This document shows, piece after piece, positions 8,301 to 54,113 of a stretch of DNA of 64,000 nt (positions within the stretch are counted from its first letter, which is position 1; every line of letters starts with the position of its first letter). The translations under genes and the position numbers were made by a program. The notes beneath the pieces are model-generated. The model saw only the letters and a program-made list of their open reading frames with translations, ran no database searches and was not told the origin of the DNA. Origin of the DNA: a virus (taxonomy: Duplodnaviria > Heunggongvirae > Uroviricota > Caudoviricetes); the IMG/VR virus record IMGVR_UViG_3300048850_000049, positions 55,864-119,863 of that record, one strand, 5' to 3'.

Positions 8301-8402
8301 ACCGGTCTCCGCTCCCCCATCAAAACCCTCTAAGAGCTCCTAGTCTCACATTATGAACAAATTAAAATTCGACAAGGCTTTTGTTTCAATTATGAGTGCA
8401 GA

Positions 8403-8479: not shown

Positions 8480-8531
8480 TTCAACTATCGAAAGCGAGAT
8501 GCAATTGATTGATAAAAACCGAACCGTATAA

Positions 8532-8963: not shown

Positions 8964-8993
8964 TTCACTCACGACCCACCGCGGTTCAACTGG

Positions 8994-9027
8994 AAGCCTG
9001 CTATAAGCCCAAGCAGGCTTTTCTTTT
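8994..9027 (+). terminator. Intrinsic terminator (GAAGCCTGC..GCAGGCTT plus TTCTTTTG)
   Basis: After the XRE gene stop. Confidence 0.55.
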
Positions 9028-9094
9028 GCGCCGTGACTTAAGTAATTACTGACTTATGCCTGACCACCCCTCCTCGTTCCCCAAGGATTCTACA

Positions 9095-9322
9095 ATGACC
9101 GAACGCACGCCCTTCCTTCGCAATCTGTCCCTCGCGAATGAGGACGCCTACATTCTGGCTTCCGAGCTGGAAGATAAAAAGACCGATGAGGTCAATGGCT
9201 GCACCATCTACTCCGGCAAGCACCCGGAATTTGGCAATATTCACATCGTTATTCCGGCGCTAGGCGACGCAAAGGCACTTTTTCCCTTTGAGCTGAAGCC
9301 TGTTGTTCTCCAGTCATTTTAA
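9095..9322 (+). CDS. Hypothetical small protein
   Basis: ATG with an AAGGA RBS; same orientation as the flanking genes. Confidence 0.3.
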   Translation: MTERTPFLRNLSLANEDAYILASELEDKKTDEVNGCTIYSGKHPEFGNIHIVIPALGDAKALFPFELKPVVLQSF

Positions 9323-11749: not shown

Positions 11750-13054
11750 ATGAACCAGGTAGTTGAAACTGGTGCAGTCACCGCTGCACCGGACGGGAAG
11801 ATTTTGTGCCATATCGATAACGTTCGCGTTCACTCGATCCAGTCGCACATCCAGAAAAACCATAAGGGCTGGACGATCGAAAAGTATCAGGCCGATTTTC
11901 CTGGTGAACCGATTCTGTCGGACACTGCAAAAACGCTGCTCGCCAAGCGTGAGCAGGAAATGAGCGCCGCGGCTAGTGCTGCGCCGGCCGCTGCATCAGT
12001 TCAGGCGCAGATGGTCGCCGACGCGACCGGCATGTCCGCTCCCCAGGTCATCGTCAATCAAGCGTTCTTCCACGATCTATTCGAACTTGGCGCTGCACCT
12101 TCTGCGCTCTCGACCAAGGGTCAGCCCATCCCGGTCAAGACGCTCTCCGGGCATGACAGCCTCTCGGCCGATTACCTGCCCGAGATCGACAAGGCGTATG
12201 TGTTCAACATTGATCTTCTCAAGAAGGTCATTATCGGCTTGGAACTGAATATTCCCTCCTATCTATGGGGCTATCACGGCACCGGCAAGACGACGCTCCT
12301 GCAGCAGGCTGCAGCGCGCACCCGCCGTCCGTTCATGCGCGTCCAGCATACGATCAATATGCAGGAGTCGGACGTTCTTGGTCAGTGGACCGTGCGTTCG
12401 CGGCCCGTTGAGGTGGAGCAAATCGACCAGACCGGTGTCAAGCACATGGTTGTTCAGCAGCAGTCCGTCACCGAGTTCCAGCTTGGACCGTTGCCGCTCG
12501 CGATGATCAACGGCTGGGTCTACTGCGCCGATGAATACGATTTCGCGATGCCGTCTGTAACTGCGGTCTATCAGCCGGTTCTCGAAGGCCAGGCGCTGAT
12601 CATCAAGGATGCTCCTGCACACTTCCGCAAGATCGTCCCGCATCCGAACTTCCGCTTCGTTGCAACCGGCAACACCAACGGCATCGGTGACGAAACCGGT
12701 CTCTATCAAGGCACGCTTGTGCAGAACGCAGCCAACTATTCCCGCTTCGGCATCACTGTCGAGGTCGAATACATGGAAGCGAAGATCGAACAGGCGATCC
12801 TCACCTCCAAGACCGGCATCGACGCGGCGAACGCCTCGAAGATCGTCAAGATGGCGAATGAGGTGCGCAAGATGTTCCGCGATGGCAAGATCACCATGAC
12901 GATCTCGCCGCGTGAGCTGCTCCGCTGCGCTTCGCTCGGGATCGCTTACGGCGGTAACTGGACGCTCGGTATGGAGCTCGCTTTCGCAAACCGTCTGTCG
13001 CGCGTCGATAAGAAGGTTGTCCAGGAATACATGCAGCGGGTGTTCGGATCTTGA
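11750..13054 (+). CDS. cobS: CobS-like AAA+ ATPase (AAA_5/MoxR type)
   Basis: Walker A GYHGTGKTTLL; follows the vWA partner directly; RBS AGAGGGAA. Confidence 0.6.
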   Translation: MNQVVETGAVTAAPDGKILCHIDNVRVHSIQSHIQKNHKGWTIEKYQADFPGEPILSDTAKTLLAKREQEMSAAASAAPAAASVQAQMVADATGMSAPQVIVNQAFFHDLFELGAAPSALSTKGQPIPVKTLSGHDSLSADYLPEIDKAYVFNIDLLKKVIIGLELNIPSYLWGYHGTGKTTLLQQAAARTRRPFMRVQHTINMQESDVLGQWTVRSRPVEVEQIDQTGVKHMVVQQQSVTEFQLGPLPLAMINGWVYCADEYDFAMPSVTAVYQPVLEGQALIIKDAPAHFRKIVPHPNFRFVATGNTNGIGDETGLYQGTLVQNAANYSRFGITVEVEYMEAKIEQAILTSKTGIDAANASKIVKMANEVRKMFRDGKITMTISPRELLRCASLGIAYGGNWTLGMELAFANRLSRVDKKVVQEYMQRVFGS

Positions 13055-13056
13055 GT

Positions 13057-13710
13057 ATGACGCAGTATCGCGATCCGAAGGAAAGCCGCGCCCAGATTAA
13101 GGCTTTCGCTCACAAGGTTCTCCGCCGGGTGCATTCACTCGGCGCGAGGACGCAGACACTGGACGATGTTGAGGGCGAATTGTGGGTAGCATGGTGCCTC
13201 GCCTGTGAACGCTTCAATCCGGAAGCAGGCTGCGCCTTCTCGACCTATCTCTACACGGGTATGCGCCGGCACATTAATCGCTGGATCGAAAAGAATTTCG
13301 AGCGCTTCCACGATGAGACGGTCGCCGCGTCCCTAGACGCTTCCTATGGGTCAGAGATGTCTGAGGATGGTTCGGGCTCGACGCTCGGCGAGGCAGTCGC
13401 TGACACGCATATGCGTCAAGACCAGGAATACGAGCAGAAGGATTGCTTCGCTTACGCCCTCACCCGGTTGTCTGACCGCGCCAAGATGTTCCTGACCTTC
13501 CTTAAGGATCATCCGCCCGAGCTGATGGCGCAGATGAAGGATCTCGAAGCGAAAGCGAAGCACGCGAAGGAACTTGGCGTCACCTATGCCATGCCCAACC
13601 GTCTCACCAGCTTCATGATCTTCGATTTCATGGGCGCTACTCGCGTCGAACGGAAGCAAATTATGGACGAGGTTGCCCAGGTGGGGCAGCTGATTTCGAA
13701 CCAGGGTTAA
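13057..13710 (+). CDS. Sigma-70 family protein (region 2-like)
   Basis: ERFNPEAGCAFSTYLYTGMRRHINRWIEK resembles sigma region 2.1-2.4 (FNPE.G..FSTY....IR..I); start overlaps the cobS stop. Confidence 0.55.
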   Translation: MTQYRDPKESRAQIKAFAHKVLRRVHSLGARTQTLDDVEGELWVAWCLACERFNPEAGCAFSTYLYTGMRRHINRWIEKNFERFHDETVAASLDASYGSEMSEDGSGSTLGEAVADTHMRQDQEYEQKDCFAYALTRLSDRAKMFLTFLKDHPPELMAQMKDLEAKAKHAKELGVTYAMPNRLTSFMIFDFMGATRVERKQIMDEVAQVGQLISNQG

Positions 13711-33370: not shown

Positions 33371-34315
33371 ATGTTCGCGAAGGTCGTGCTTGCAAGCAAG
33401 CCGACCAACGGCGCTCTGCCGCTCTTCTCAATCCACATGCACTATCCGGACATCATCCACGGCGAAGTGCTGACGCACCGGAAGTTTGGACGAAATGCCC
33501 GTTCCATGCGGGCAACGCCCATCAAGACCTTGCTCGAGGAGATCCGCAAGGATCCGTTTGTGCCCTGGCACTGGGGTAAGAACCAGAAGGGAATGCAGGC
33601 AAGCGAGGAAAACAACTCGTTGGTCTCTGTCCCGACCTTCAACGGCGGATGCGAGGATCTTACGCGGGAAGACGCATGGCTGCGTGGCCGTGATTTTGCT
33701 GCGATGGTTGCAGAAGGCTACGCGCTTTCCGACTATCATAAGCAGGTCGCAAACCGCATCATCGCGCCCTACACCTGGAAGCATACGCTGATCAGCTCGA
33801 CCAGCTGGGCGAACTTCCTTCATCTGCGCGATCATGAGGATGCCGAACCGCATTTCCACGATCTTGCGGCTTTGGTCCGTGAAGCTCTGGCCGGCGCACA
33901 GTTCCAGCTCCTCGAGCATGGCGACTGGCACCTCCCGTATGTCACTCCGCAGGAAAAGAAGTTCCACAGCCTCGACGTTTTGCGAAAGCTGTCCGTAGCC
34001 CGCTGCGCCCGTATCTCCTACGCGCCGTTCGACGGCAATCCGTCGGTCGATCGGGAACTTGAACGCTACGACCTTCTGGTTGGATCCTCACCGCTTCACG
34101 CTTCGCCCACCGAGCATCAGGCCACTCCGGACAGTCAGTCAACCTACCGGCTTCAGGTGAAGACTTTCGAAGGCGGAAATGGGTTCGATCGCTGGGAGAC
34201 TGTCTCGGAAGACAACAGCTGGAACCACTCCGATCTTTCCGGAAACTTCGATCCTGGCTGGATCCAGTTCCGCAAGACCCTTCCTCTCGAATTCATCAAG
34301 GATATAGCAGCATGA
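33371..34315 (+). CDS. Divergent ThyX-like (flavin-dependent thymidylate synthase family) protein with a C-terminal extension
   Basis: THRKFGRNARSMRA versus the ThyX RHRxxSxxxxSxRY motif, and SWANFLHLRDHEDAE versus ThyX NARSLMNFLNLRADSHAQ; AAGGA RBS. Confidence 0.4.
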   Translation: MFAKVVLASKPTNGALPLFSIHMHYPDIIHGEVLTHRKFGRNARSMRATPIKTLLEEIRKDPFVPWHWGKNQKGMQASEENNSLVSVPTFNGGCEDLTREDAWLRGRDFAAMVAEGYALSDYHKQVANRIIAPYTWKHTLISSTSWANFLHLRDHEDAEPHFHDLAALVREALAGAQFQLLEHGDWHLPYVTPQEKKFHSLDVLRKLSVARCARISYAPFDGNPSVDRELERYDLLVGSSPLHASPTEHQATPDSQSTYRLQVKTFEGGNGFDRWETVSEDNSWNHSDLSGNFDPGWIQFRKTLPLEFIKDIAA

Positions 34316-34569
34316 AGAAGTTCGCCCTTCTCGCGGCAGTTGCCGCAACCTCGCTCCTCGCCGGCTGCGGTGTGGATCCGGACAATGCTCGCCGCGCCCT
34401 GGAAGCGCAGGGCATCACCAACGTCCAGATCGGCGGACATGCCTTCTTCGGTTGCGACAAGAATGATCAGTTCGCGTCCAATTTCACCGGCGTCGGCGTC
34501 AATGGCAAGCCTATCTCCGGCGTTCTGTGCGGCGGGATCTTCAAGGGCATCACCGTTCGCTATGACTAA
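34312..34569 (+). CDS. Small lipoprotein
   Basis: Signal peptide plus lipobox LLAGC. Confidence 0.55.
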   Translation: MKKFALLAAVAATSLLAGCGVDPDNARRALEAQGITNVQIGGHAFFGCDKNDQFASNFTGVGVNGKPISGVLCGGIFKGITVRYD

Positions 34570-34780: not shown

Positions 34781-35251
34781 ATGGGCGGATCAACTTCCAA
34801 TATCTACATGGTGCCCTACCGGCTTTTGACGGCCTGGGCGAAGGCTCCCGCTTATAGCTCTGCCGAAGCTGCAGGCGCTGATCTTTACGCCGACCTCTCG
34901 ACTCTGGACACGGAACTCATGGAAACGACCATCCAGCCCGGCAAGCGGCTCCTGGTGAAGACCGGCGTCGCCATCGAATTGCCGACTGGATCCTACGCCA
35001 AGATCGAAGGGCGCTCCGGACTTGCTAACAAGCACGGCATCTGTGTCCTCGGCGGTGTGATCGACAGCGATTATCGCGGCGACGTTGGCGTCATCCTTCT
35101 GAACACCGGCGAAGAGCCGTTCACGTTCAAGCACGGCGACCGGATCGCTCAGCTGGTCATTCATCCCTATCTCGTCGGTCACTTTGAAGAAGCCGACGCG
35201 CTGACTCACAGCGATCGTGGTGCAGCTGGTTTCGGTTCCTCGGGGTCATAA
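34781..35251 (+). CDS. dut: dUTPase
   Basis: RSGLANKHGI, GVIDSDYRGDVGVILLN and RGAAGFGSSG dUTPase motifs. Confidence 0.9.
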   Translation: MGGSTSNIYMVPYRLLTAWAKAPAYSSAEAAGADLYADLSTLDTELMETTIQPGKRLLVKTGVAIELPTGSYAKIEGRSGLANKHGICVLGGVIDSDYRGDVGVILLNTGEEPFTFKHGDRIAQLVIHPYLVGHFEEADALTHSDRGAAGFGSSGS

Positions 35252-35871
35252 TGCTGTTCGGCTTGACCGGTTCCAGCGGCACTGGAAAGACCACGCTCGC
35301 AAAGCGGGTTGCAGAGGAATTGGGCATTACTTTCATGCCCACTTCTATCACTGAATGCGCCAAGCGGCATGGATTCGACGCAGTAGCGCCGATGACGATT
35401 CAGACGCGCATTGCCCTACAGATGAAGCTGCTCGAGGACCACGTTTCGATGGTTATGGATGCAGATCGTCCGCTCATCGTGGACAGGACGCCGATCGACA
35501 TGATCGGCTATCTGCTCGCGGAGATCGATATGCACTCCAATCATCGTATGCTCTCTGAGGATATCGTTGCGGCCGAGGAATATGTCGATCTTTGCCTCGA
35601 GACCACGGCGAAGCTCTACGACTACATCTTCGTCCTGGGCCAGCTGGAGCATTACGAGATCAAGGACAGTCGGCCGGCTAACAACCGCGCCTACCAGACC
35701 CATACCCAGCTTATCATGCAGGGTGCATTGAGCCGTCTGTGGGGCCGGGTGAACTTTTCGATCGTCCGCCAGCAGGAGCTGGAGATCCGTCACGAATACG
35801 TCCACGACGCAATCGTGAAGCGTATGGATGACATTTCTCGGGAAAGGGCTTCATCGGCTCACATTCACTAA
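35251..35871 (+). CDS. P-loop NTPase, predicted nucleotide/nucleoside kinase
   Basis: Walker A GSSGTGKTT at the N-terminus; sits inside the nucleotide-metabolism cluster. Confidence 0.5.
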   Translation: MLFGLTGSSGTGKTTLAKRVAEELGITFMPTSITECAKRHGFDAVAPMTIQTRIALQMKLLEDHVSMVMDADRPLIVDRTPIDMIGYLLAEIDMHSNHRMLSEDIVAAEEYVDLCLETTAKLYDYIFVLGQLEHYEIKDSRPANNRAYQTHTQLIMQGALSRLWGRVNFSIVRQQELEIRHEYVHDAIVKRMDDISRERASSAHIH

Positions 35872-36573: not shown

Positions 36574-36641
36574 GCCCCGGTAGCACAGGGCCGTGCAGTG
36601 GTTGAAAGCCAAAGGTCGTGGTTCGACTCCACGCCGGGGAT
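36574..36641 (+). tRNA. tRNA-like element 1 (acceptor/D/T arms; no canonical anticodon stem found by eye)
   Basis: 6-bp acceptor CCCCGG/CCGGGG, U8A9, D-stem GCAC/GUGC, T-arm CGUGG-UUCGACU-CCACG. Confidence 0.35.
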
Positions 36642-46045: not shown

Positions 46046-46305
46046 CCTTAAGCTCTCTCGCGCTCACCGCTTCACTGCTGGTCAACACGTTCTATCCGAT
46101 CTGCGTCAGCCTTGCTGATGAGGTCGTAACGACCGTTCAGGAGGAGCTGGATGCCAAATCCTCCGAGCAGGCTGTCGCCATCGAGGAAGTTTACAGCGTC
46201 GAGCCTTCATCGCCCTGGATCTGCACCGCGACCGGGTTCGGGTCCAAGCCTCGCTGCTACGCAAGGCCATTGATGCTGGAAGAGGATGCTACCAATGTGG
46301 ATTAA
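46042..46305 (+). CDS. Hypothetical protein (GTG start overlapping the upstream stop)
   Basis: GTGA start/stop overlap. Confidence 0.3.
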   Translation: MTLSSLALTASLLVNTFYPICVSLADEVVTTVQEELDAKSSEQAVAIEEVYSVEPSSPWICTATGFGSKPRCYARPLMLEEDATNVD

Positions 46306-46768
46306 TCTCCCCAAGGAAGATCTCGACCTGCTCTGGTCGCTCCTGACGACGAGCGCTGATGCGGAACGCAAAGATGCCGCGCTCTTCTGGCGCCGCGAGG
46401 ACGGTGAATTGTCGAAGCGCCTGAATTTGCGCGCGGACAAATACGTCAACATCGCCAACACGATTCAAAAGGCGCAAGCCGTCGATCCCTCTGATGCAGC
46501 CTATCGTGCAGCGGCTCAGGCTCAAGCAGACGATGAGCTTGAGGTGGACGAGGACGCGATCGTGTCCGTTGGATCTGATCCGGGTGCCTTCGTTCAAGCC
46601 TGGATTTGGATCTCCAACGAAGAAGCCGGAATTAAGGACGACGACGAAGATACTTGCCGCACCTGCGGCGAGGAATACCCGGAGGGCGGTGACGGGTTCG
46701 ATGGCGAATGCCCGAACTGCGCCGACAAGACCGACCAGAAGCTTCACCCTGAGAATTACGAGGACTGA
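46286..46768 (+). CDS. Hypothetical acidic protein with a C-terminal CxxC..CxxC ribbon
   Basis: CRTCGEE...CPNCAD. Confidence 0.4.
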   Translation: MLPMWINLPKEDLDLLWSLLTTSADAERKDAALFWRREDGELSKRLNLRADKYVNIANTIQKAQAVDPSDAAYRAAAQAQADDELEVDEDAIVSVGSDPGAFVQAWIWISNEEAGIKDDDEDTCRTCGEEYPEGGDGFDGECPNCADKTDQKLHPENYED

Positions 46769-47119
46769 ATGACCGACATTTTCGTGTTTGGTTCGAACCT
46801 TGCCGGCCGTCATGGCGCAGGTGCCGCTCGTTATGCGCTTGAGAAGAAAGGCGCCGTCCTCTTCCAGGGCGAAGGCTTGCAGGGCGAATCCTATGGCATT
46901 GCAACCAAGGATGACTGGTTGCGCACCCGTGGCCTCGTCGAAATCGAGCGCTCCGTGATCGAGTTCATCCGCTTTGCCGAGCTTCATCCCGAGCTGACCT
47001 TCGACGTGACGCCGATCGGCTGCGGTCTCGCCGGCTACAAGCGTGAACAAATCCGCCCGATGTTCGCCGATATGCCGGCAAACTGCCGCTTCAACGCAAC
47101 TTGGGAGGATCCAGACTGA
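46769..47119 (+). CDS. Hypothetical protein with a Rossmann-like FGSNLAGRHGAGAA motif (macro/SLOG-like?)
   Basis: ATGA coupling; motif resemblance only. Confidence 0.35.
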   Translation: MTDIFVFGSNLAGRHGAGAARYALEKKGAVLFQGEGLQGESYGIATKDDWLRTRGLVEIERSVIEFIRFAELHPELTFDVTPIGCGLAGYKREQIRPMFADMPANCRFNATWEDPD

Positions 47120-47535
47120 TGTCGCGCCGTTTCCCAAAGCTTCGGGTCAATAAGAAGGGCATGGCTGTTCTATCTGGGATTCATATCCGAGACCTACAGT
47201 CGATCTTCACCTCTGCCTCGATCCATCATTATGAGACGGAGCGCACTATCAAGGCCAAGGCCGAAAAGGTGGAGCGCGACGCCCAGGAGGACAATCTCGG
47301 CCTCGCCGATGTTATCCGCGAGAACTATAAGAGCGACCAGACCTGGGCAAGGCGAATGCGCCTGCTGATCAATGCATTGGAAACGCCAGGCTACAACCAT
47401 GGCTACGACAACATTCCTGTCATTCAGCTAGATGGCCTCGGCCGTTTCTGTCGGCTCCGCGCCGTCAAGGAAGAGCGCAAGGGTCGCTTGGTCATCGAGG
47501 ATATCATGAAGAGTTTCGGCAAGGGGCGCTCTTAA
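47101..47535 (+). CDS. Hypothetical protein
   Basis: Coupled ORF. Confidence 0.4.
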   Translation: MGGSRLMSRRFPKLRVNKKGMAVLSGIHIRDLQSIFTSASIHHYETERTIKAKAEKVERDAQEDNLGLADVIRENYKSDQTWARRMRLLINALETPGYNHGYDNIPVIQLDGLGRFCRLRAVKEERKGRLVIEDIMKSFGKGRS

Positions 47536-47536
47536 C

Positions 47537-47570
47537 CTACCGCGCTCCAACAGCATTCACGCTATAACTT
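47537..47570 (+). promoter_or_regulatory. Promoter (CTACCGCGCTCCAAC .. CGCTATAAC), no palindrome
   Basis: Upstream of the 663-aa gene. Confidence 0.5.
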
Positions 47571-47647
47571 AATCACTAACGAAATCAAAGACTTGTCGCA
47601 TTGCGCGGCGTGTCTTTGCTCGTCCAAATCACGGAGTAAAGACCCGA

Positions 47648-49639
47648 ATGAGTGCCGATTTTCCAAAGTTTGCGAAGGCGATTGAAGCCCACTTCAACGA
47701 GATGGCAAAGGGCGATCTTTATATCGTCGATGCCGTTGATCTGTTCGACCGATATCTGGCTGCCTTTCCTGAAGGCACCAACCCGATTTACCGCGTTCGC
47801 ACCGAGCATGACGGCTCCTATGACAAGCAGTTCATCCGGAACGTCGGTCATGTCGTCAAGATCAAGGGCTCGAAGATCGAAACCCTCTGGGACGTGAAGG
47901 GCTTGCCGCATCCATATGATGTCGTCGCCGCTGCGCTTGCCAATTATATTCGCTCCTTGCCGATCCGGTCGATCTTCAAGACCAAGGAAGGCAAGTTCTC
48001 GATGGAATCCAACATCGAGTTGAAGGACGGCGTTACGACGAAGTTCAACCACTTCTTCTGCGTTGTGCCGAACTCGCACCGCTCCGCTACGCCGGAAGCT
48101 GACAAGGGCACGAAGACCACGAACATCGGCGTCTTCCGTCGCGGCCTCGAGGAGCTGACCGCAGACGCTCTCGAAACGGTTCTCGACCTGATCAAGAGCA
48201 ACGGGCTCTATCGCGGCGACGAACACAAGCGCGCTGTTACCGAATTCCTCGCTCTGCACCGTGCCTACCCGCGCGGTGGCTCCCAGGCTGAGAAGGACGT
48301 ATTTCTCTGGTCGAATATCTTCATGCCGGCCGCACTCTTCCGCAACACCGTCATTGGCACGCTGATTGTGGATATTTCCGCCGGCATCGATCTTGAGGCC
48401 GCTGTCCGCAAGTTCGAAAGCAAGGTCGCTCCCGAAAACTACAAGCGCCCCACGGCTCTGATTACGCCCAAGATGATCGATGACGGTCTCGCCAAGCTGC
48501 GTGAACTCGGTCTTGAGTCCGCTGTCGAGCGCCGCTTCGCCAAGATCTCCGACGTGTCCGTCAACAACGTCCTGTTCGTTGACAACTCGGTCAAGGGCCA
48601 GATGAAGGGTGGTCTGGAAGGTCTGCTCAACGAGGCTGTGAAGCCTGCCACGGTCGACATCAAGCACGCCGAAGAGATCACGATGGATGACTTCCTGGCG
48701 CGCATCGTGCCGCAGGCGTCCTCGATCGACCTTCTCCTGCAGAACACGCACCTCGCAAACTTCATGAGCCTGACTGCACCGGTCGATCCGGCAGCCGGAC
48801 AGTTGTTCAAGTGGGCAAATGGCTTCGCCTGGTCCTATGACGGCGACGTAACCGACAGTCTGAAGGAGCGTGTCAAGGCTGCAGGCGGCAACGTCAAGGC
48901 TGACTTCCGTATCTCACTTGGTTGGTTCAACTTCGACGACCTCGATATTCACGTCCGCTGGCCGGGTGGCCCCGAAATCTACTACGCCAACAAGCAGGGT
49001 CATCAGGACGTTGATATGAACGTTTCGCCTGACAGCCGCAAGGCAGTCGAGAACGTGGTCTTCAATGGCCGCGACGTGAAGGATGGCGAATACATCGTCA
49101 TGGTTCACAACTTCACGAAGCGCGAGTCCACCGATGTCGGGTTCGAGCTTGAAGTTGAGAGCCGCGGCGTAATTCATCGCTTCACCCACAGCAAGGCTGT
49201 TCCCTCTCGCGCTGTGGTCGTCGCTCTGTCGATCACGGTCAAGGGCGGCGTTGTCACCGGCGTCAAGACTGGCCTTAACGTCACGGGTGGCTCGTTCGCC
49301 CAGGAAAAGTGGGGCGTCAGCACTGAAACGCTCGTTCCTGTCGACACGCTCATGGCGTCTCCGAACCACTGGGACGGTCAGGGCGTCGGCAACAAGCATT
49401 GGTTCTTCCTCTTGAAGAACTGCCTCAATCCGGGCTCTGCACGCGGCATCTACAACGAGTTCCTCAAGTCCGAACTCGATCCGCACCGCAAGGTGTTCGA
49501 GGTGCTTGGCGCCAAGTCCAAGGCGCCGTTCGTCACTGAACAGCTGTCCGGTGTCGGCTTCTCATCCACTCGCGACGACCAGGTGAAGGTCGTCGTTAAG
49601 GGCAATCGCATCAACAAGGCATTCAACATCAGCTTCTAA
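47648..49639 (+). CDS. Large conserved hypothetical protein (663 aa)
   Basis: Promoter motif upstream; long, clean ORF. Confidence 0.5.
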   Translation: MSADFPKFAKAIEAHFNEMAKGDLYIVDAVDLFDRYLAAFPEGTNPIYRVRTEHDGSYDKQFIRNVGHVVKIKGSKIETLWDVKGLPHPYDVVAAALANYIRSLPIRSIFKTKEGKFSMESNIELKDGVTTKFNHFFCVVPNSHRSATPEADKGTKTTNIGVFRRGLEELTADALETVLDLIKSNGLYRGDEHKRAVTEFLALHRAYPRGGSQAEKDVFLWSNIFMPAALFRNTVIGTLIVDISAGIDLEAAVRKFESKVAPENYKRPTALITPKMIDDGLAKLRELGLESAVERRFAKISDVSVNNVLFVDNSVKGQMKGGLEGLLNEAVKPATVDIKHAEEITMDDFLARIVPQASSIDLLLQNTHLANFMSLTAPVDPAAGQLFKWANGFAWSYDGDVTDSLKERVKAAGGNVKADFRISLGWFNFDDLDIHVRWPGGPEIYYANKQGHQDVDMNVSPDSRKAVENVVFNGRDVKDGEYIVMVHNFTKRESTDVGFELEVESRGVIHRFTHSKAVPSRAVVVALSITVKGGVVTGVKTGLNVTGGSFAQEKWGVSTETLVPVDTLMASPNHWDGQGVGNKHWFFLLKNCLNPGSARGIYNEFLKSELDPHRKVFEVLGAKSKAPFVTEQLSGVGFSSTRDDQVKVVVKGNRINKAFNISF

Positions 49640-49649: not shown

Positions 49650-50072
49650 ATGAACCTTTTCGAAATCGCTTCGCGCAAGAAGCTCCGTTTTCCCTCCGTT
49701 AAGGGCGATCTAACTGCAGAACAGCTGTGGGATCTTCCCCTGACCATCACGTCCGCAACCCGCGACGTGAAGGCCGACCTCGACACCATCGCCCGCTCCG
49801 TCAATGCGGAACTCAAGTCGGTGACGGAAGAGACCTTTGTCGCTGTGAAGCCCGATCCGCGCAAGCCGGACCTGGAAACGAAGCTTGAGATCCTCAAGCA
49901 CATCATCGCCTTTAAGGTGAAGGTCTCAGAGGATGCCAAGGCAAGCGCCGAACGCGCTGAAAAGCGCCGGAAGCTGGTCGAGGCTCTTGCTTCGAAGGAA
50001 GACCAGGCGCTCGCCACGATGTCGAAGGAGGACATCCTCAAGCAGCTGGCCGAACTTGAGGCCAACGGCTGA
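49650..50072 (+). CDS. Hypothetical protein
   Basis: RBS AAGGAGAG. Confidence 0.45.
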   Translation: MNLFEIASRKKLRFPSVKGDLTAEQLWDLPLTITSATRDVKADLDTIARSVNAELKSVTEETFVAVKPDPRKPDLETKLEILKHIIAFKVKVSEDAKASAERAEKRRKLVEALASKEDQALATMSKEDILKQLAELEANG

Positions 50073-50115: not shown

Positions 50116-50150
50116 GGAAGCGTTCATCACCTGATGCGCTTCCGTTTTCA
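50116..50150 (+). terminator. Intrinsic terminator (GGAAGCG..CGCTTCC plus GTTTTCATTTG) that overlaps the next promoter
   Basis: After gene 49650..50072. Confidence 0.45.
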
Positions 50151-50185
50151 TTTGCGCTATAAGATCAGTAAGAACTTACTTACTC
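50133..50185 (+). promoter_or_regulatory. Promoter (GATGCGCTTCCG .. TTTGCGCTATAAG) plus palindrome CAGTAAGAACTTACTTACTC
   Basis: Upstream of gene 50200 and the nadM-nadV genes. Confidence 0.55.
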
Positions 50186-50199: not shown

Positions 50200-50412
50200 A
50201 TGAGCGATACCATTCAGATCACCGGCACCATCAAGAATGCGCGGTTCTTCGATATCGGCAGCAAGCAGATCGTCTGCGGCCAGATCTACGGCGATGCCGG
50301 CAACCGCTTCGAAGATGGCACGCAGATCAACACGTCCGAGGTCATCAGCGTTGATGGCGATCTCGTGACGACCCGCAATTCGGTCTATCGGATCGAACGG
50401 AGGGCCGCTTAA
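50200..50412 (+). CDS. Hypothetical small protein
   Basis: Promoter plus palindrome upstream. Confidence 0.4.
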   Translation: MSDTIQITGTIKNARFFDIGSKQIVCGQIYGDAGNRFEDGTQINTSEVISVDGDLVTTRNSVYRIERRAA

Positions 50413-51453
50413 ATGCGGGACTACCATTACGGCGTGTATATCGGCCGGTTTCAGCCGCTGCATGTCGGGCATGAGACTATCATCCGCGAGGCGCTTGAGC
50501 GGGTCGAGACCCTGATCATCGTCGTAGGTTCGAGCTTCGTGTCGCGCACGCCGGTCAACCCGTTCTCCTTTACCGAGCGCGAGCAAATGCTGCGCATGGT
50601 CTTCGGGCACGAGATTGCGTCAGGCCGGATCATCATTCTCCCGCTCTACGACTATGAGCATGACCATGCTTGGATCTCGAACCTTAAGTCCGTGGTCAAT
50701 GAGGCTATTCTCGATCATGCCAATCAAGGCGGTGTTCGTTTGCATGGCACTCGCGACTTCAAGGTTGCGCTGACCGGATACGGTAAGGACGCCTCGTCCT
50801 ACTATCTCAAGATGTTCCCCAACTGGGACAGCATCCAGATCGAGACGCAGCACGGCACGATCAATGCGTCCGATATCCGCTACGACTACCTGCGCCGGCT
50901 CCCGCGTTACCCGAGCCACGCTGTCAATCCGCGTGTGAACTTGTGGCTGGAAGGCTTTTCGCTCAGCGAGGAGTTCAAGCACCTGGTCGCGGAAAAGCAG
51001 CAGCTGCAGGACGATAAGGTGGCGTTCGGCGCGGGTCCGTTCCTGACGGCTGACGCTCTTGTGACCTGGCGCGGCAAGGTTCTCCTCGTCACGCGGGGCG
51101 GCAAGATTGGCTACGGCCTGTTCGCCATGCCGGGCGGCTTCGTCAATCCGGGTGAGCGCATGTTCGACGCCGCGCTGCGCGAGCTCCAGGAGGAGACCAA
51201 GATCGAGGGCGTGAACATCGATGACTTCTACGCCGGTCACATGCTCGCGGACAATCCGAAGCGCTCCCTGCGCGGGCGCGTCGTTTCGATGGTCTTCCAC
51301 TTTGATATCCCGAGCGATGTCGAGGTCCAGAAGCCCGAAGGCTCCGACGATGCCAGGCACGCCGATTGGTATTCATTCGAGGAGCTGAACACCTCTCAGT
51401 TCTTCGACGACCATCACACTCTCATCTCCAACATGTTGAAGGACGCCGCATAA
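50413..51453 (+). CDS. nadM: Bifunctional NMN adenylyltransferase (NadM-type) / Nudix hydrolase
   Basis: GRFQPLHVGH nucleotidyltransferase motif; C-terminal Nudix box GGFVNPGERMFDAALRELQEETKIEG. Confidence 0.8.
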   Translation: MRDYHYGVYIGRFQPLHVGHETIIREALERVETLIIVVGSSFVSRTPVNPFSFTEREQMLRMVFGHEIASGRIIILPLYDYEHDHAWISNLKSVVNEAILDHANQGGVRLHGTRDFKVALTGYGKDASSYYLKMFPNWDSIQIETQHGTINASDIRYDYLRRLPRYPSHAVNPRVNLWLEGFSLSEEFKHLVAEKQQLQDDKVAFGAGPFLTADALVTWRGKVLLVTRGGKIGYGLFAMPGGFVNPGERMFDAALRELQEETKIEGVNIDDFYAGHMLADNPKRSLRGRVVSMVFHFDIPSDVEVQKPEGSDDARHADWYSFEELNTSQFFDDHHTLISNMLKDAA

Positions 51454-52892
51454 TGGCAAGCAACATCATCCTTGCGACCGACAGTTACAAGCACAGCCAC
51501 TTCCTGCAGTATCCCGCCGGCGCAAAGCACGTTTCGAGCTACATCGAGGCGCGCATCGGTGCGGACCATAAGCAGGTGACGCAGTTCTTCGGGATCGACG
51601 CTTATATTCTCGAGAACCTCATGAGTCCGCTCTGCAGCGACGACATCGCCGAGGCGAAGGAGCTTCTTGAGGCGCACGGTCTGCCGTTCAACGAGGTTGA
51701 TTGGAACTATATCCGCGATCATCACGAAGGCTATCTGCCGATCGAGATCCAGGCGCTACCTGAAGGTCTGGTCGTGCCGCGCGGTATTCCCCTCATCCAG
51801 GTGCGCAACACTGATCCGAAGCTTCCCTGGCTGACCAGCTTCATCGAGACGGGATTGCTTCGCGCCGTTTGGTATCCGTCCTCCGTGGCAACTCTGTCGT
51901 TCCTGACCAAGGCGATTATCTGGGAAGCCCTGCAGCGCACGTCCGACGATCCGGACGGTCAGATCGGCTTCAAGCTGCATGACTTCGGTGCGCGCGGTTG
52001 TTCGTCGGCCGAAACTGCCGCTCTCGGCGGTATGGCGCATCTGCTGAACTTCAAGGGCTCGGATACGCTTGAAGCCATTCATGCAGTCCAGCGCTACTAC
52101 TGCACTTCGGACATGCCCGGGTTTTCCATTCCGGCGTCTGAACATTCGACCATGACCAGCTGGGGCAAGGATCGCGAGAGCGAAGCCTACGCGAACATGA
52201 TGGACACGTTCGGCAGCGGCATGTTCTCGATCGTGTCCGACAGCTACGACATCTTCAACGCCGTCGAGAACATCTTCGGCAATGAGTTGAAGGATAAGAT
52301 CCTGAACCTCGAAGGCAAGCTGATCGTGCGGCCGGACAGCGGAAATCCCGTTCTGACGCCGATCGCCGTTCTTGAAAAGCTTTGGGCGAGCTTCGGTGGG
52401 TCGGTCAACTCGAAGGGCTATAAGGTTCTGAACCCGAAGATCGGTCTGATCCAGGGCGACGGCATGAACGCTCACTCGATTGCCGCACTTGTGGCCGGCG
52501 TCGCCGCTGCAGGATTCTCGGTAGACAACATCGCTTTCGGTATGGGCGGTGGACTGCTCCAGGGCCACATGCGCGATGATATGCGTTTTGCCATGAAGGC
52601 CAACGCCATCGACTTCGGTGAAGGCTGGGTTGACGTGCAGAAGAAGCCTGCGTCGGATCCCACGAAGACCTCGAAGGCCGGTCGTCAGGCTGTTTACCGT
52701 GTTGGCACCGAGTATTTCGATTGCCGCGAGGACCAGCTGCCGCAGGGCGAGGTCAATCTCCTTGAGACTGTCTACCGCGATGGCGAGTGCTTCTTGAGCG
52801 AAGAGTGGTCCGACCTGACCAAGCGCGCCCACGAAGAGCTTCTGACGTTCCACGGCGAGGCGTTCTATGAGCGGAAGGAGGCGGCTGAATAA
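51453..52892 (+). CDS. nadV: Nicotinamide phosphoribosyltransferase (NAMPT/NadV)
   Basis: ILATDSYKHSHF N-terminus, GFKLHDFGARG, overall NAMPT-like. Confidence 0.8.
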   Translation: MASNIILATDSYKHSHFLQYPAGAKHVSSYIEARIGADHKQVTQFFGIDAYILENLMSPLCSDDIAEAKELLEAHGLPFNEVDWNYIRDHHEGYLPIEIQALPEGLVVPRGIPLIQVRNTDPKLPWLTSFIETGLLRAVWYPSSVATLSFLTKAIIWEALQRTSDDPDGQIGFKLHDFGARGCSSAETAALGGMAHLLNFKGSDTLEAIHAVQRYYCTSDMPGFSIPASEHSTMTSWGKDRESEAYANMMDTFGSGMFSIVSDSYDIFNAVENIFGNELKDKILNLEGKLIVRPDSGNPVLTPIAVLEKLWASFGGSVNSKGYKVLNPKIGLIQGDGMNAHSIAALVAGVAAAGFSVDNIAFGMGGGLLQGHMRDDMRFAMKANAIDFGEGWVDVQKKPASDPTKTSKAGRQAVYRVGTEYFDCREDQLPQGEVNLLETVYRDGECFLSEEWSDLTKRAHEELLTFHGEAFYERKEAAE

Positions 52893-52908: not shown

Positions 52909-52950
52909 AGCACTCCGTCACGATCAACGCTATAAGTAATTCATTACTTA
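52909..52950 (+). promoter_or_regulatory. Promoter (AGCACTCCGTCAC .. CGCTATAAG) plus palindrome AGTAATTCATTACTTA
   Basis: Upstream of the small-TM/SPFH module. Confidence 0.5.
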
Positions 52951-52960: not shown

Positions 52961-53095
52961 GAGCAGACAATGAACACCATCAACGATGACCGCAAGGCGT
53001 TCAACGGCAACTACGGCCCGCTGATCATTGGCGTGGTTTACGCCACTGGCGTGCTCATCGCCTTTGTCGGCAACGCGCTCTTTGGCGCCAGCTGA
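52961..53095 (+). CDS. Small single-TM protein (44 aa)
   Basis: Promoter plus palindrome upstream; RBS GGAGCAG. Confidence 0.35.
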   Translation, partial: EQTMNTINDDRKAFNGNYGPLIIGVVYATGVLIAFVGNALFGAS

Positions 53096-53205
53096 TGCTG
53101 AAGGTCATCGGAGCGACCGTCGTCGCAATCATCATCGCAATGGGTGTCGTCAAGGCACTCGAAATCGCCCGCAAGCGCGTGGGTAACAACGAAAAGAAGG
53201 ACTAA
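53095..53205 (+). CDS. Small single-TM protein (36 aa)
   Basis: TGATG coupling; hydrophobic core. Confidence 0.35.
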   Translation: MLKVIGATVVAIIIAMGVVKALEIARKRVGNNEKKD

Positions 53206-53206
53206 C

Positions 53207-54061
53207 ATGAACCTGTTCAAGATTATTCCGGCGGCAATCGTCGGGCTCCTCTTCATTGGCATTGCCGGTGGATCATTCTTCACCGTCGACGAAGGCGAGA
53301 GGGCCGTCGTTGTTAGTCAGGGCAAGATTTCCGGCGTCTATGGCGCAGGATTCCACGGCAAGACGCCGTTCATCGCTGACACTCACTACATCTCCACGCG
53401 CACTCAGGCCGTCGAGTTTCCGGAAGAGCCGGTCTACACTGCCGATCGTCAGACGGCGACCGTGAGCTTCTCTGTCAACTATGCCGCGGTGCCGACCGAC
53501 AAGGAGATCACTGCGATCTATCGCGACTTCCAGACCCTTGAAGGTCTCGAAACGCGGGCCTTGAAGCGTCAGATCCGCGAGCAGATCAAGAATATCTTCG
53601 GCACGTTCACCGCTGACATCGCTATCCGCGAACGTGGGCGTCTGAACAACGAGGTCGCTGCAGCTATTGCTGATCTTGGTGGTGGGCTGATTAAGATCGA
53701 AGGCGTCAATATCGAGAATATCAACTTCTCCGATGGCGTCGAACGTGCGGCTGAGGAACGCGCCCAGGCCGAAATGAAGGTCCAGACCAAGAAGCAGGAG
53801 CTGGATATCGCAAGGAAGGATGCTGAAATCACTGTGGCTAAGGCTCAGGCGACTGCCGACAGTCAGCTTGCCCAGGCAAAGGCTACTGCCGAAGGTGTTC
53901 GTCTGACCGGTGAAGCCGAGGCTGCCGCTATTAAGGCGAAGTCCGAAGCTTTGCGTGAAAGCCCGAACCTGGTCGAACTGACCAAGGCTGAGCGCTGGGA
54001 TGGAAAGCTGCCGACGAGCTTCGTGCCTGGGTCTGCGATCCCGTTCGTCAACATCAAGTAA
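53207..54061 (+). CDS. SPFH/band-7 (prohibitin/HflK-like) membrane protein
   Basis: N-terminal TM then SPFH core and a coiled-coil AEERAQAEMKVQTKKQELDIARKDAEITVAKAQA; a strong terminator follows. Confidence 0.7.
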   Translation: MNLFKIIPAAIVGLLFIGIAGGSFFTVDEGERAVVVSQGKISGVYGAGFHGKTPFIADTHYISTRTQAVEFPEEPVYTADRQTATVSFSVNYAAVPTDKEITAIYRDFQTLEGLETRALKRQIREQIKNIFGTFTADIAIRERGRLNNEVAAAIADLGGGLIKIEGVNIENINFSDGVERAAEERAQAEMKVQTKKQELDIARKDAEITVAKAQATADSQLAQAKATAEGVRLTGEAEAAAIKAKSEALRESPNLVELTKAERWDGKLPTSFVPGSAIPFVNIK

Positions 54062-54085
54062 TCCGCGGCTCCCGCTGCGAATTGA

Positions 54086-54113
54086 GAGGCGCCCTTGTGG
54101 CGCCTTTTTCTTT
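54086..54113 (+). terminator. Strong intrinsic terminator (GAGGCGCC-CTTGT-GGCGCCTC plus TTTTTCTTTG)
   Basis: After the SPFH gene. Confidence 0.65.

What the first reader, a model, noticed from the sequence alone, without database searches (positions are those of the whole stretch)
50413..52892. NAD+ salvage pair (NadM-Nudix NMNAT plus NadV NAMPT), matching the phage NAD+ reconstitution pathway type 2
The two adjacent genes encode a bifunctional NMN adenylyltransferase/Nudix enzyme and a nicotinamide phosphoribosyltransferase. This is the combination known from vibriophage KVP40 (NatV/NadV). It was recently shown to rebuild NAD+ from ADP-ribose and nicotinamide after NAD-depleting defences such as Thoeris, DSR and SEFIR have fired. 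Its presence suggests the host range includes strains with NADase-based immunity.
Basis: partly seen in the sequence, partly recalled or inferred. Interest (0 to 1): 0.6.

Follow-up and report, generated by a model that had tools for sequence, protein, structure and literature searches.

The report
Phage NAD+ salvage gene pair (NARP2-type)
Two back-to-back genes in a Rhizobium-type phage encode apparently intact enzymes that remake the cofactor NAD+ from nicotinamide; this pair is already known from phages, so the find is real but ordinary.

Summary
ORF 50413..51453 is a full-length NadM-type NMN adenylyltransferase fused to a Nudix domain. ORF 51453..52892 is a NadV/NAMPT nicotinamide phosphoribosyltransferase, and its ATG overlaps the nadM stop codon by 1 nt.

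- **Motifs:** every catalytic motif I could check is intact.
- **Clade:** NadV groups with the Nmnat-associated (NARP2) sequences, not with the Adps-associated Namat (NARP1) sequences.
- **NARP1 excluded:** no Prs/Adps homologue is present.
- **Selection:** both genes are under purifying selection.

The window is collinear with Rhizobium phage RHph_X66, with 45-82% amino-acid identity. Osterman et al. already list that phage's pair, and those of B1VFA and V1VFA-S, as Nmnat-associated. JGI/IMG already names both window proteins correctly.

NARP2 builds NAD+ from PRPP, nicotinamide and ATP. Building from ADP-ribose is NARP1. The KVP40 pair was tested against type I Thoeris and DSR2, and later aRES; SEFIR is listed only for NARP1. 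The anti-defence role and the host-range inference rest on homology alone.

New detail: a 70-aa ORF, nadM and nadV appear to form one unit. A recurrent phage promoter-like motif (CGCTATAA, 18 copies against 0.8 expected) sits upstream of it.

Verdict: a new member of a known kind, of low interest.

The parts
50136..50180 (+). Phage promoter-like element upstream of the unit. It consists of GCGCTTCC, an 11-nt spacer, CGCTATAA (50155..50162), and then a near-palindrome AGTAAGAACTTACT (50167..50180).
   Evidence: CGCTATAA occurs 18 times in the window, 17 on the + strand, against 0.83 expected from shuffles. The aligned contexts share an upstream GCnnTCC and a downstream AGTAAG..CTTACT palindrome. 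The same element lies 37 nt upstream of the homologous small ORF in RHph_X66. Its function as a promoter is inferred.
50200..50412 (+). 70-aa ORF of unknown function. Its stop codon abuts the nadM ATG, so it is probably co-transcribed.
   Evidence: The sequence reads ...TAAATG.... It is 33% identical (tblastn; 38% in the global alignment) to the small ORF in the same position in RHph_X66. It matches only PHROGs of unknown function, the best being phrog_8840 at E=7e-11, and has no Pfam or NCBIfam hit. The Logan assembly calls it as a gene. It was not found next to the pair in Ruegeria phage V10 or in two IMG/VR contigs.
50413..51453 (+). nadM-Nudix: a bifunctional NMN adenylyltransferase (N-terminal, about aa 1-175) and Nudix ADP-ribose pyrophosphatase-type domain (about aa 205-346).
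   Evidence: dN/dS is 0.30 against RHph_X66. GGAGG lies 9 nt upstream of the ATG.
50446..50472 (+). NMNAT ATP-binding motif GRFQPLHVGH (R12, H17, H20).
   Evidence: It is invariant in the alignment with RHph_X66, Ruegeria V10 and KVP40 NatV, and identical in pattern to 2QJO and 2QJT.
50860..50880 (+). Second nucleotidyltransferase motif INASDIR (R156), the ISxTxxR-type motif with a conservative Thr to Ser change.
   Evidence: It aligns with ISATDFR (KVP40), IDATTIR (V10), FSSTAIR (2QJO) and FNATEFR (2QJT). The Arg is invariant.
51136..51204 (+). Nudix box G242-I264: GFVNPGERMFDAALRELQEETKI. E248, R256, E257, E260 and E261 are present.
   Evidence: Read directly from the sequence. These residues are invariant across the four phage proteins and in 2QJO and 2QJT. 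The usual Gly near the end of the box is Lys here; it is also non-Gly in the characterised homologues.
51453..52892 (+). nadV: nicotinamide phosphoribosyltransferase (NAMPT). It is probably translationally coupled to nadM through a 1-nt overlap.
   Evidence: dN/dS is 0.28.
52062..52145 (+). NadV active-site stretch from D204 (contacts the nicotinamide amide) to H231 (the autophosphorylated histidine).
   Evidence: D204 corresponds to human D219 and Xcc D203. H231 corresponds to human H247 and Xcc H229. The roles of the Xcc residues come from mutagenesis in PMC10907753.
52928..52935 (+). The next copy of the promoter-like motif. It marks the start of the following unit (two tiny membrane ORFs and an SPFH protein) and so the downstream limit of the NAD unit.
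   Evidence: The downstream unit ends at a terminator-like hairpin at 54084..54108.

Best explanation
This is a functional two-enzyme NAD+ salvage operon of the NARP2 type, carried by a phage of about 120 kb related to Rhizobium phages.

**Proposed mechanism.**
1. NadV, activated by ATP-dependent phosphorylation of His231, condenses nicotinamide with host-made PRPP to give NMN.
2. The N-terminal NMNAT domain of NadM adenylates NMN with ATP to give NAD+.
3. The C-terminal Nudix domain most likely hydrolyses ADP-ribose to AMP and ribose-5-phosphate. It may also hydrolyse NAD+/NADH. The products can re-enter the pathway through host Prs.

**Expression.** The genes lie just downstream of the replication and nucleotide-metabolism genes and are preceded by the same promoter-like element. 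They probably form a three-cistron unit: 70-aa ORF, nadM, nadV.

**Effect.** NAD+ stays available during infection, including in hosts whose TIR, SIR2 or RES-type defences degrade it.

**Shown here:** gene integrity, homology, catalytic residues, clade, synteny, purifying selection, and absence of Adps/Prs.

**Inferred:** enzyme activities, transcription unit, timing of expression, and the counter-defence benefit.
For: **Family and structure matches.** Domain and family matches are.

**Prototype comparison.** Direct comparison with the KVP40 NARP2 prototype is.

**NAMPT residues.** Every residue shown by mutagenesis to matter in Xanthomonas NAMPT (F177, R180, D203, H229, D335, R373) has its equivalent, and so does every other Xanthomonas or human contact residue I mapped.

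**NadM motifs.** The HxGH and ISxTxxR-type motifs and the Nudix box are intact.

**Clade.** In a neighbour-joining tree NadV sits with the Nmnat-associated sequences. It is 43-74% identical to most of them (36% to the most distant, Yersinia phage fHe-Yen9-04) and 29-36% identical to Adps-associated Namat.

**Relatives already catalogued.** RHph_X66, B1VFA and V1VFA-S are already listed as Nmnat-associated.

**NARP1 excluded.** No Prs/Adps homologue is found in the window or in the complete RHph_X66 genome.

**Selection.** dN/dS is 0.28-0.30, similar to rIIA and RecA.

**Gene order.** nadM lies upstream of nadV, close and on the same strand, in RHph_X66, Ruegeria V10 and two IMG/VR contigs.

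**Counter-defence evidence from the prototype.** The KVP40 pair abolishes type I Thoeris and DSR2 defence and raises NAD+. It also cancels aRES.
Against: - Nothing was measured for this phage or its relatives. Identity to the tested KVP40 proteins is only 32% and 44%.
- NadM scores below every NCBIfam equivalog cut-off.
- Host PRPP supply is assumed.
- NARP2 makes NAD+ constitutively and is costly.
- NARP1/2 homologues were detected mostly in bacterial chromosomes outside prophages. The selective benefit here could therefore be metabolic rather than counter-defence.
- The substrate of the Nudix domain is inferred from homologues only.
Confidence: 0.8

Rival explanations
1. The pair is purely a metabolic helper. 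It has no specific role against NAD-depleting immunity in this phage's hosts.
For: - The pair lies just downstream of the replication and nucleotide-metabolism genes (RNR, glutaredoxin, ThyX, dUTPase) and carries the same promoter-like motif.
- NARP2 makes excess NAD+ even when no defence is present.
- NARP1/2 homologues were detected mostly in bacterial chromosomes outside prophages, which suggests non-defence roles there.
Against: - The homologous KVP40 pair does abolish Thoeris, DSR2 and aRES defence, so any active pair would have that effect where such systems exist.
- This phage's DNA ligase has ATP-dependent ligase domains, and both RHph_X66 ligases are annotated ATP-dependent. No NAD-dependent ligase or other obvious NAD consumer was found.
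- The block is missing from the collinear region fetched from the related phage RHph_N1_10, so it is accessory rather than core.
- The two readings do not exclude each other.
Confidence: 0.15
2. The Nudix domain is the important part. It mainly degrades NAD+, NADH, NAD-capped RNA or ADP-ribose-derived signals for regulation or host takeover, and NAD+ synthesis is secondary.
For: - The Nudix box is fully intact.
- A published survey proposes that the NadM Nudix domain regulates NAD+ levels by cleaving NAD+ (PMC9503650).
- From my own recollection, not checked here: KVP40 NatV was reported to hydrolyse ADP-ribose, NAD+ and NADH in vitro (Lee et al. 2017).
Against: - The NMNAT motifs are equally conserved.
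- NadM is tightly coupled to nadV.
- The survey states that every phage with NadM also has NadV. That argues for a synthetic pathway.
Confidence: 0.04
3. NadV acts as a NARP1-type Namat, using ADPR-pyrophosphate to rebuild NAD+ directly from ADP-ribose. This is the chemistry the first reader's wording implies.
For: KVP40 Nampt can make some NAD+ from ADPR-PP in vitro.
Against: - KVP40 Nampt prefers PRPP.
- The window NadV lies outside the Adps-associated group.
- No Adps/Prs homologue exists in the window or in the whole RHph_X66 genome, so nothing would supply ADPR-PP.
Confidence: 0.01

Closest known systems
Vibrio phage KVP40 NadV (KVP40.0264) and NatV (KVP40.0162), the experimentally tested NARP2 prototype
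   Same: It has the same two enzymes and the same domain architecture: a NAMPT, and an NMNAT fused to Nudix. Catalytic residues are conserved. Alignments cover the full length of NatV (32% identity) and the first 410 residues of NadV (44% identity).
   Different: - Sequence identity is low.
- In KVP40 the genes are 42.7 kb apart. Here they overlap by 1 nt and share a promoter-like element.
- KVP40 is a T4-like myovirus of Vibrio and also carries nadR and pnuC. This is a relative of Rhizobium phages of about 120 kb whose tail genes are lambda-like in the RHph_X66 annotation.
- KVP40 NatV lacks the RSxRGR motif after the Nudix box. The window protein, RHph_X66, V10, 2QJO and 2QJT all have it.
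nadM-nadV of Rhizobium phages RHph_X66, B1VFA and V1VFA-S
   Same: - The genome backbone is collinear.
- The local order is the same: promoter-like motif (confirmed in RHph_X66), small ORF, nadM, nadV, two tiny ORFs, SPFH protein.
- Amino-acid identity is 69-70% and nucleotide identity about 74%.
- Their NadV proteins are already catalogued as Nmnat-associated (NARP2).
   Different: - The phage is a distinct species or genus. Megablast finds no match for this 2.5-kb region, and identity is about 78% over the conserved replication genes.
- RHph_X66 has an RtcB gene about 2 kb upstream; no homologue was detected in the window.
- The 663-aa upstream protein is only 27% identical.
Bacterial NadV / NadM-Nudix nicotinamide salvage (Synechocystis slr0787, Francisella NadM-Nudix, Xanthomonas NAMPT)
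   Same: These are the best solved-structure matches: 2QJO at E=1.5e-48 and 7YQO at E=4.8e-123. All functionally mapped residues are conserved.
   Different: They are chromosomal housekeeping genes. Here the pair is an accessory module in a phage genome, preceded by a phage-specific promoter-like motif.
NARP1 (Adps plus Namat)
   Same: The goal is the same, restoring NAD+. Namat is a distant homologue of NadV, 29-36% identical.
   Different: NARP1 uses ADP-ribose by way of ADPR-PP. It needs Adps, which is absent here. The window NadV falls in the other group.
NARP3 (NadR-like RNK-NMNAT plus PnuC transporter)
   Same: It also ends with an NMNAT step that makes NAD+.
   Different: NARP3 starts from imported nicotinamide riboside. 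No PnuC or NadR was seen among the window proteins I scanned. A P-loop kinase at 35251..35871 hits Pfam AAA_28 but has no NadR match in the PDB or NCBIfam.

Membership tests
NARP2 (phage NAD+ reconstitution pathway 2, Osterman et al.) | A Nampt homologue that belongs to the Nmnat-associated clade, not the Adps-associated Namat clade | tested here: met
   The neighbour-joining tree and BLASTP used labelled sequences from Table S2. The window NadV groups with RHph_X66, B1VFA, V10, KVP40 and Aeromonas SW69-9, at 43-74% identity. The Adps-associated set forms the other branch at 29-36%.
NARP2 (phage NAD+ reconstitution pathway 2, Osterman et al.) | A homologue of KVP40 Nmnat (NatV) encoded in the same genome | tested here: met
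   32% identity over 346 versus 341 aa, E=4e-47, with both domains aligned. The gene is adjacent to nadV.
NARP2 (phage NAD+ reconstitution pathway 2, Osterman et al.) | No Adps (Prs-like ADPR-PP synthetase); NARP1 and NARP2 are reported never to co-occur | tested here: met
   E. coli Prs searched with phmmer and tblastn against six-frame ORFs of the window and of the whole RHph_X66 genome gave no hit at E<=10 with phmmer and only chance tblastn hits at E>1. The remaining 56 kb of this phage's own contig was not available.
NARP2 (phage NAD+ reconstitution pathway 2, Osterman et al.) | Makes NAD+ from PRPP, nicotinamide and ATP, and rescues phage from NAD+-depleting defence systems | not testable with these tools
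   This needs enzyme assays and plaque assays. It has been shown only for the KVP40 pair.
NAMPT / NadV (type II phosphoribosyltransferase specific for nicotinamide) | NAMPT_N and NAPRTase domains above curated thresholds | tested here: met
   PF18127 scores 78.6 bits (cut-off 25). PF04095 scores 177.6 bits (cut-off 20.8). NF006629 scores 564.8 bits (cut-off 405).
NAMPT / NadV (type II phosphoribosyltransferase specific for nicotinamide) | Catalytic and specificity residues: the stacking Tyr and Phe, the Asp that reads the amide (Ser in NAPRT), the autophosphorylated His, and the PRPP/ribose-binding Arg and Asp | tested here: met
   Y12, F178, R181, D204, H231, R293, D295, D336, G365-G367, R374 and K382 align with human Y18, F193, R196, D219, H247, R311, D313, D354, G383-385, R392 and K400. 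They also align with Xcc Y14, F177, R180, D203, H229, R293, D335 and R373. The roles of the Xcc residues come from PMC10907753.
NadM-Nudix bifunctional NMNAT / ADP-ribose pyrophosphatase | Full-length two-domain architecture homologous to characterised members | tested here: met
   2QJO aligns residues 3-341 with 6-337. 2QJT aligns 4-344 with 7-347. Both Pfam domains score above their cut-offs.
NadM-Nudix bifunctional NMNAT / ADP-ribose pyrophosphatase | Score above an NCBIfam PRK05379 equivalog cut-off | tested here: not met
   The best score is 269.7 bits (NF003786) against a cut-off of 397. All seven sub-models score below their cut-offs. The protein is therefore a divergent member of the family and not an equivalog of any curated bacterial subgroup.
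NadM-Nudix bifunctional NMNAT / ADP-ribose pyrophosphatase | The GRxQPxHxGH and ISxTxxR nucleotidyltransferase motifs and the Nudix box Gx5Ex7REUxEExGU | tested here: met
   The motifs are GRFQPLHVGH, INASDIR (a conservative Thr to Ser change shared with RHph_X66) and GFVNPGERMFDAALRELQEETKI. In the last, Lys replaces the Gly near the end of the box; that position is also non-Gly in 2QJO, 2QJT and KVP40.
NARP1 (Adps plus Namat) | An Adps gene next to a Namat-clade transferase | tested here: not met
   No Adps/Prs homologue was found, and the transferase is not in the Namat group.

The most novel reading that the evidence does not exclude
The unit may be more than the textbook pair. The 70-aa ORF lies under the same promoter-like element and abuts nadM in both this phage and RHph_X66. 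It could be a lineage-specific third component, for example a regulator that limits the known toxicity and PRPP drain of NARP2.

Alternatively, the Nudix domain might close a real ADP-ribose to ribose-5-phosphate to PRPP recycling loop. In that case this NARP2 variant would use both products of NADase cleavage.
Probability: 0.1. Interest if true: 0.45.

Novelty: new member of a known kind. Interest (0 to 1): 0.2.

Why it matters
The find adds one more NARP2 carrier, from a soil or rhizobial phage lineage not represented in the GenBank phage collection searched. NadM-Nudix homologues occur in 475 of 50,697 phage records.

It gives a compact, translationally coupled version of the pathway, preceded by a defined phage promoter-like element. 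That form could be convenient for cloning and testing, since the KVP40 operon is toxic in E. coli.

It does not change what is known about NAD+ counter-defence. Its practical value lies in annotation and in choosing rhizobiophages for host-range or defence studies.

Tried and rejected
- **Megablast of the 2.5-kb region against phages:** no match. Only blastn and protein searches find relatives.
- **IMG/VR scan with NadM:** only two distant loci, at 39-41% identity.
- **Lee et al. 2017 (PMC5388814):** not held. Statements about NatV substrates rest on Osterman et al.'s summary and on my recollection.
- **Sigma-70 consensus scan:** no + strand promoter near the genes, and no terminator between nadM, nadV and the next unit. 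A phage-specific motif was found instead.
- **Neighbouring genes:** no NAD-related function turned up.
  - The 663-aa protein is DUF8224/phrog_1735. It occurs in 553 phage records, and several of the best-matching phages are only about 70-76 kb. I did not test whether it co-occurs with NadV.
  - The 116-aa protein belongs to the A1S_2505 family.
- **P-loop kinase at 35251..35871:** I considered it as a possible nicotinamide riboside kinase because of a Pfam AAA_28 hit. I rejected this because it has no NadR match in the PDB or NCBIfam, and it sits next to dUTPase.
- **NAD-dependent ligase as the reason for the pathway:** rejected. The window's ligase has ATP-dependent ligase domains, and RHph_X66's two ligases are annotated ATP-dependent.
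- **Prs/Adps search:** negative.
- **Literature search for NADase defence systems in Rhizobium:** nothing usable.
- **Large protein-database homology searches and structure prediction:** not run. Family, PDB and direct comparisons already settled the question.
Full report
**1. Observation**

The two genes are real and lie at the stated coordinates on the + strand.

*nadM-Nudix.* ORF 50413..51453 (346 aa) carries a cytidylyltransferase-like domain and a NUDIX domain above Pfam cut-offs. It matches the NCBIfam 'bifunctional NMN adenylyltransferase/Nudix' models end to end. The score of 269.7 bits is below the equivalog cut-offs of 354-449, so it is a divergent member. It also aligns over its full length with the solved NadM-Nudix enzymes of Synechocystis (2QJO, E=1.5e-48) and Francisella (2QJT, E=2.4e-37).

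*nadV.* The second gene is listed mechanically from a TTG at 51366. Homology begins at the ATG at 51453, which overlaps the nadM stop codon (TAATG) and follows an AGGA by 9 nt. The 479-aa product has NAMPT_N and NAPRTase domains. It passes the NCBIfam NF006629 cut-off with 564.8 bits against 405. It matches Xanthomonas NAMPT (7YQO, E=4.8e-123) and human NAMPT (about 1e-112).

*Other ORFs and independent confirmation.* The long antisense ORFs in this interval show the reversed codon-position G+C pattern of shadow frames. An independent gene call on a Logan assembly of the same sequence gives the same gene boundaries. JGI/IMG holds both proteins on a 119,863-bp contig and already names them 'bifunctional NMN adenylyltransferase/nudix hydrolase' and 'nicotinamide phosphoribosyltransferase'.

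**2. Genomic setting**

The window is phage DNA. Its genes are collinear with positions 52-113 kb of Rhizobium phage RHph_X66, a 120-kb genome, at 45-82% amino-acid identity. The shared genes include:
- primase, ATP-dependent ligase and RepC;
- CobT, CobS and a sigma factor;
- Pol III alpha, a 5'-3' exonuclease, RecA and SbcCD-like nucleases (the + strand SSB gene itself was not compared);
- RNR, glutaredoxin, ThyX and dUTPase;
- rIIA, rIIB and RNA ligase 2.

At the DNA level the phage is only about 74-78% identical to RHph_X66, B1VFA and V1VFA-S, and megablast finds nothing for the NAD region. It is therefore a new relative of that cluster.

The local order is conserved with RHph_X66: small ORF, nadM, nadV, two tiny membrane ORFs, SPFH/prohibitin. 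A more distant, collinear Rhizobium phage, RHph_N1_10, lacks the whole block from DUF8224 to nadV in the 42.7-kb region examined. The pair is thus an accessory module and not part of the conserved core. NadM-Nudix homologues occur in 475 of 50,697 phage records, in line with the published figure of about 1% for NARP2.

**3. Are the enzymes intact?**

*NadV.* I mapped the window protein onto human NAMPT numbering and checked the positions by script.

| Window residue | Human NAMPT | Role in homologues |
|---|---|---|
| Y12, F178 | Y18, F193 | stack on nicotinamide |
| R181 | R196 | phosphate/ribose contact |
| D204 | D219 | reads the amide; Ser in NAPRT |
| H231 | H247 | autophosphorylation site |
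| R293, D295 | R311, D313 | PRPP/ribose contact |
| D336 | D354 | ribose contact |
| G365-G367 | G383-G385 | active-site loop |
| R374 | R392 | phosphate contact |
| K382 | K400 | active-site Lys |

The same residues correspond to Xanthomonas Y14, F177, R180, D203, H229, R293, D335 and R373. In that enzyme, mutations at R180, D203, H229, D335 and R373 reduced or abolished activity. D203 confers the preference for nicotinamide over nicotinate (PMC10907753).

*NadM.* The motif GRFQPLHVGH (R12, H17, H20) and the Arg of INASDIR (R156) are invariant across RHph_X66, Ruegeria phage V10 and KVP40 NatV. They match 2QJO and 2QJT. The only deviation is a conservative Thr to Ser change that RHph_X66 shares.

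*Nudix box.* The box GFVNPGERMFDAALRELQEETKI keeps E248 and the RE-x2-EE glutamates.

*Selection.* Against RHph_X66, dN/dS is 0.30 for nadM and 0.28 for nadV. These values are similar to rIIA (0.26) and RecA (0.21). dS is near saturation at 0.8-0.9, so the values are rough.

**4. Which pathway?**

Osterman et al. divide phage Nampt/Namat proteins into two clades:
- an Adps-associated clade (NARP1), which works from ADP-ribose by way of ADPR-PP;
- an Nmnat-associated clade (NARP2), which works from PRPP and nicotinamide by way of NMN.

Using labelled sequences from their Table S2 together with KVP40 NadV, the window protein groups with the Nmnat-associated sequences. It is 74% identical to RHph_X66, 58% to V10 and 43% to KVP40, against 29-36% for Adps-associated proteins. 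Table S2 already labels the RHph_X66, B1VFA and V1VFA-S proteins 'Nmnat-associated'.

Direct comparison with the tested KVP40 proteins gives 44% identity (E=4e-114) for NadV and 32% identity over the full length (E=4e-47) for NatV. E. coli Prs finds no homologue in six-frame ORFs of the window or of the complete RHph_X66 genome. There is therefore no Adps, and PRPP must come from the host. All sequence-testable criteria for NARP2 are met. Activity and phenotype cannot be tested here.

**5. Most likely mechanism**

- **NadV (inferred from homology and conserved residues):** it makes NMN from nicotinamide and host PRPP, after ATP-dependent phosphorylation of H231.
- **NMNAT domain (inferred):** it joins NMN and ATP to give NAD+.
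- **Nudix domain (inferred, weaker):** it hydrolyses ADP-ribose to AMP and ribose-5-phosphate, which host Prs can turn back into PRPP.
- **Benefit:** the pathway keeps NAD+ available during infection. From the KVP40 experiments it would also neutralise defences that destroy NAD+, namely type I Thoeris and DSR2 and aRES, which NARP1 cannot overcome.
- **Cost:** the pathway makes NAD+ whether or not a defence fires, it is costly, and it consumes PRPP.

**6.

- 'Rebuild NAD+ from ADP-ribose and nicotinamide' is the chemistry of NARP1, not NARP2.
- SEFIR is listed among the systems overcome by NARP1. The KVP40 pair was tested against type I Thoeris and DSR2.
- In KVP40, natV (94,507..95,532) and nadV (138,214..139,707) are 42.7 kb apart, not adjacent.
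- The inference that the hosts carry NADase immunity is plausible but untested. NARP1/2 homologues were detected mostly in bacterial chromosomes outside prophages.
- This phage's ligase has ATP-dependent ligase domains, and both RHph_X66 ligases are annotated ATP-dependent. A ligase requirement for NAD+ therefore does not explain the pair.

**7. New detail: the transcription unit**

The octamer CGCTATAA occurs 18 times in the window, 17 of them on the + strand, against 0.83 expected from shuffles. Most copies are intergenic, and most of those lie 18-90 nt upstream of a + strand start codon. They share an upstream GCnnTCC and a downstream AGTAAGTAAGCACTTACTTA-like palindrome.

- One copy (50155..50162) lies 45 nt upstream of a 70-aa ORF (50200..50412) whose stop codon abuts the nadM ATG.
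- The next copy (52928..52935) lies 42 nt upstream of the first tiny membrane ORF after nadV.
- RHph_X66 has the same element 37 nt upstream of its homologous small ORF.

The likely unit is therefore 70-aa ORF, nadM, nadV. A second unit (two tiny ORFs and SPFH) follows and ends at a terminator-like hairpin at 54084..54108.

The 70-aa protein has no annotated family. It evolves fast, at 38% identity and dN/dS 0.5. It is not found next to the pair in more distant phages. A role in the pathway is speculative.

**8. Novelty and verdict**

The enzyme pair, its occurrence in phages and its counter-defence role are published. According to my recollection of Lee et al. 2017, that includes large siphophages. 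The closest relatives are already catalogued as NARP2 carriers, and the proteins themselves are already correctly named in IMG.

This is a new member of a known kind. It is well supported as an intact NARP2-type operon, and its biological role is inferred by homology. Interest is low, at 0.2.

The only mildly new points are the tight coupling of the two genes, the conserved upstream small ORF, and the phage promoter-like motif.

Noticed in passing
window, 18 sites, e.g. 1386, 8472, 18266, 28472, 37611, 41541, 47560, 50155, 52928, 58484: This is a phage-specific promoter-like element. CGCTATAA occurs 18 times (17 on the + strand) against 0.83 expected. It has an upstream GCnnTCC and a downstream palindrome AGTAAGTAAGCACTTACTTA, which could be an operator or a 5'-UTR hairpin. 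Most copies are intergenic and lie just upstream of genes. RHph_X66 has 16 + strand copies, including one at the homologous position upstream of its nadM unit. The phage encodes its own sigma-70-family protein (13051..13710).
   Followed up: partly
window 50200..50412 (+): A 70-aa ORF of unknown function lies directly upstream of nadM and abuts it. The same position is occupied in RHph_X66, at 33-38% identity. It matches only PHROGs of unknown function. It is not linked to the pair in Ruegeria phage V10 or in two IMG/VR contigs.
   Followed up: partly
window 47648..49639 (+) and 49650..50072 (+): The first is a 663-aa protein that matches phrog_1735 at 755 bits and carries Pfam DUF8224 according to the Logan record. 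The second is a 140-aa phrog_2018 protein. The large protein is strongly conserved, at 45-51% identity, in 553 phage records from very different hosts (Salmonella, Klebsiella, Bacillus, roseophages, a cyanophage). It has no known function. I did not test whether it co-occurs with NadV.
   Followed up: partly
window 46769..47119 (+): A 116-aa protein of the A1S_2505 family of phage non-structural proteins (NCBIfam NF049995, 142 bits; phrog_2072), with the N-terminal motif FVFGSNLAGRHGAGAA. Its function is unknown. It lies inside a longer antisense shadow ORF (46289..47137), which my crude gene caller picked instead.
   Followed up: partly
window 52970..54108 (+): Two tiny hydrophobic ORFs (41 and 36 aa) and an SPFH/Band-7 (prohibitin-like) protein (53207..54061) form the next unit after nadV. 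It ends at a terminator-like hairpin at 54084..54108. In RHph_N1_10 the SPFH gene sits elsewhere, next to the thymidylate synthase and dUTPase genes.
   Followed up: partly
window 35251..35871 (+): A P-loop kinase next to dUTPase hits Pfam AAA_28, which I recall (not checked here) includes the NadR ribosylnicotinamide kinase domain, at 47 bits. It shows no similarity to NadR in the PDB or NCBIfam. It is more likely a nucleotide kinase than a third NAD salvage enzyme.
   Followed up: yes
window 1404..1988 (+): A protein containing a WGR domain (Pfam PF05406, E=1.9e-12), conserved in RHph_X66. From my recollection, WGR domains occur in PARP-type enzymes. No catalytic domain was detected here.
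   Followed up: no
window about 4000..9300: This is a low-G+C island (0.49-0.53, against about 0.57 elsewhere) with minus-strand genes. It contains a RepC-like replication protein (4874..5974, 44% identical to RHph_X66), a 243-aa ORF with no match (4089..4823) and an MtlR-like protein (7713..8300, PF05068). It looks like the plasmid-type replication and regulatory region of the phage.
   Followed up: no
window 47137..47648 compared with RHph_X66 97272..98705: RHph_X66 and RHph_N1_10 both carry an RtcB RNA ligase in the region upstream of this position. No homologue was detected among the window's called genes. A 144-aa ORF with no match (47101..47535) occupies the place.
   Followed up: partly
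window 36574..36641 (+) and 34358..34435 (-): ARAGORN calls a tRNA-Phe(gaa) in the gene-poor gap 35.9-37.3 kb, where RHph_X66 has a tRNA-Cys in the corresponding gap. It also calls a minus-strand tRNA-Trp that overlaps a + strand ORF (34312..34569) and is therefore doubtful.
   Followed up: no
L007 and L008 (Vibrio phage KVP40, NC_005083): In the NARP2 prototype, natV (94,507..95,532) and nadV (138,214..139,707) are 42.7 kb apart. nadR and pnuC lie between them at 113.6-116.2 kb. Adjacency of the pair is therefore a feature of other lineages and not of the prototype.
   Followed up: yes
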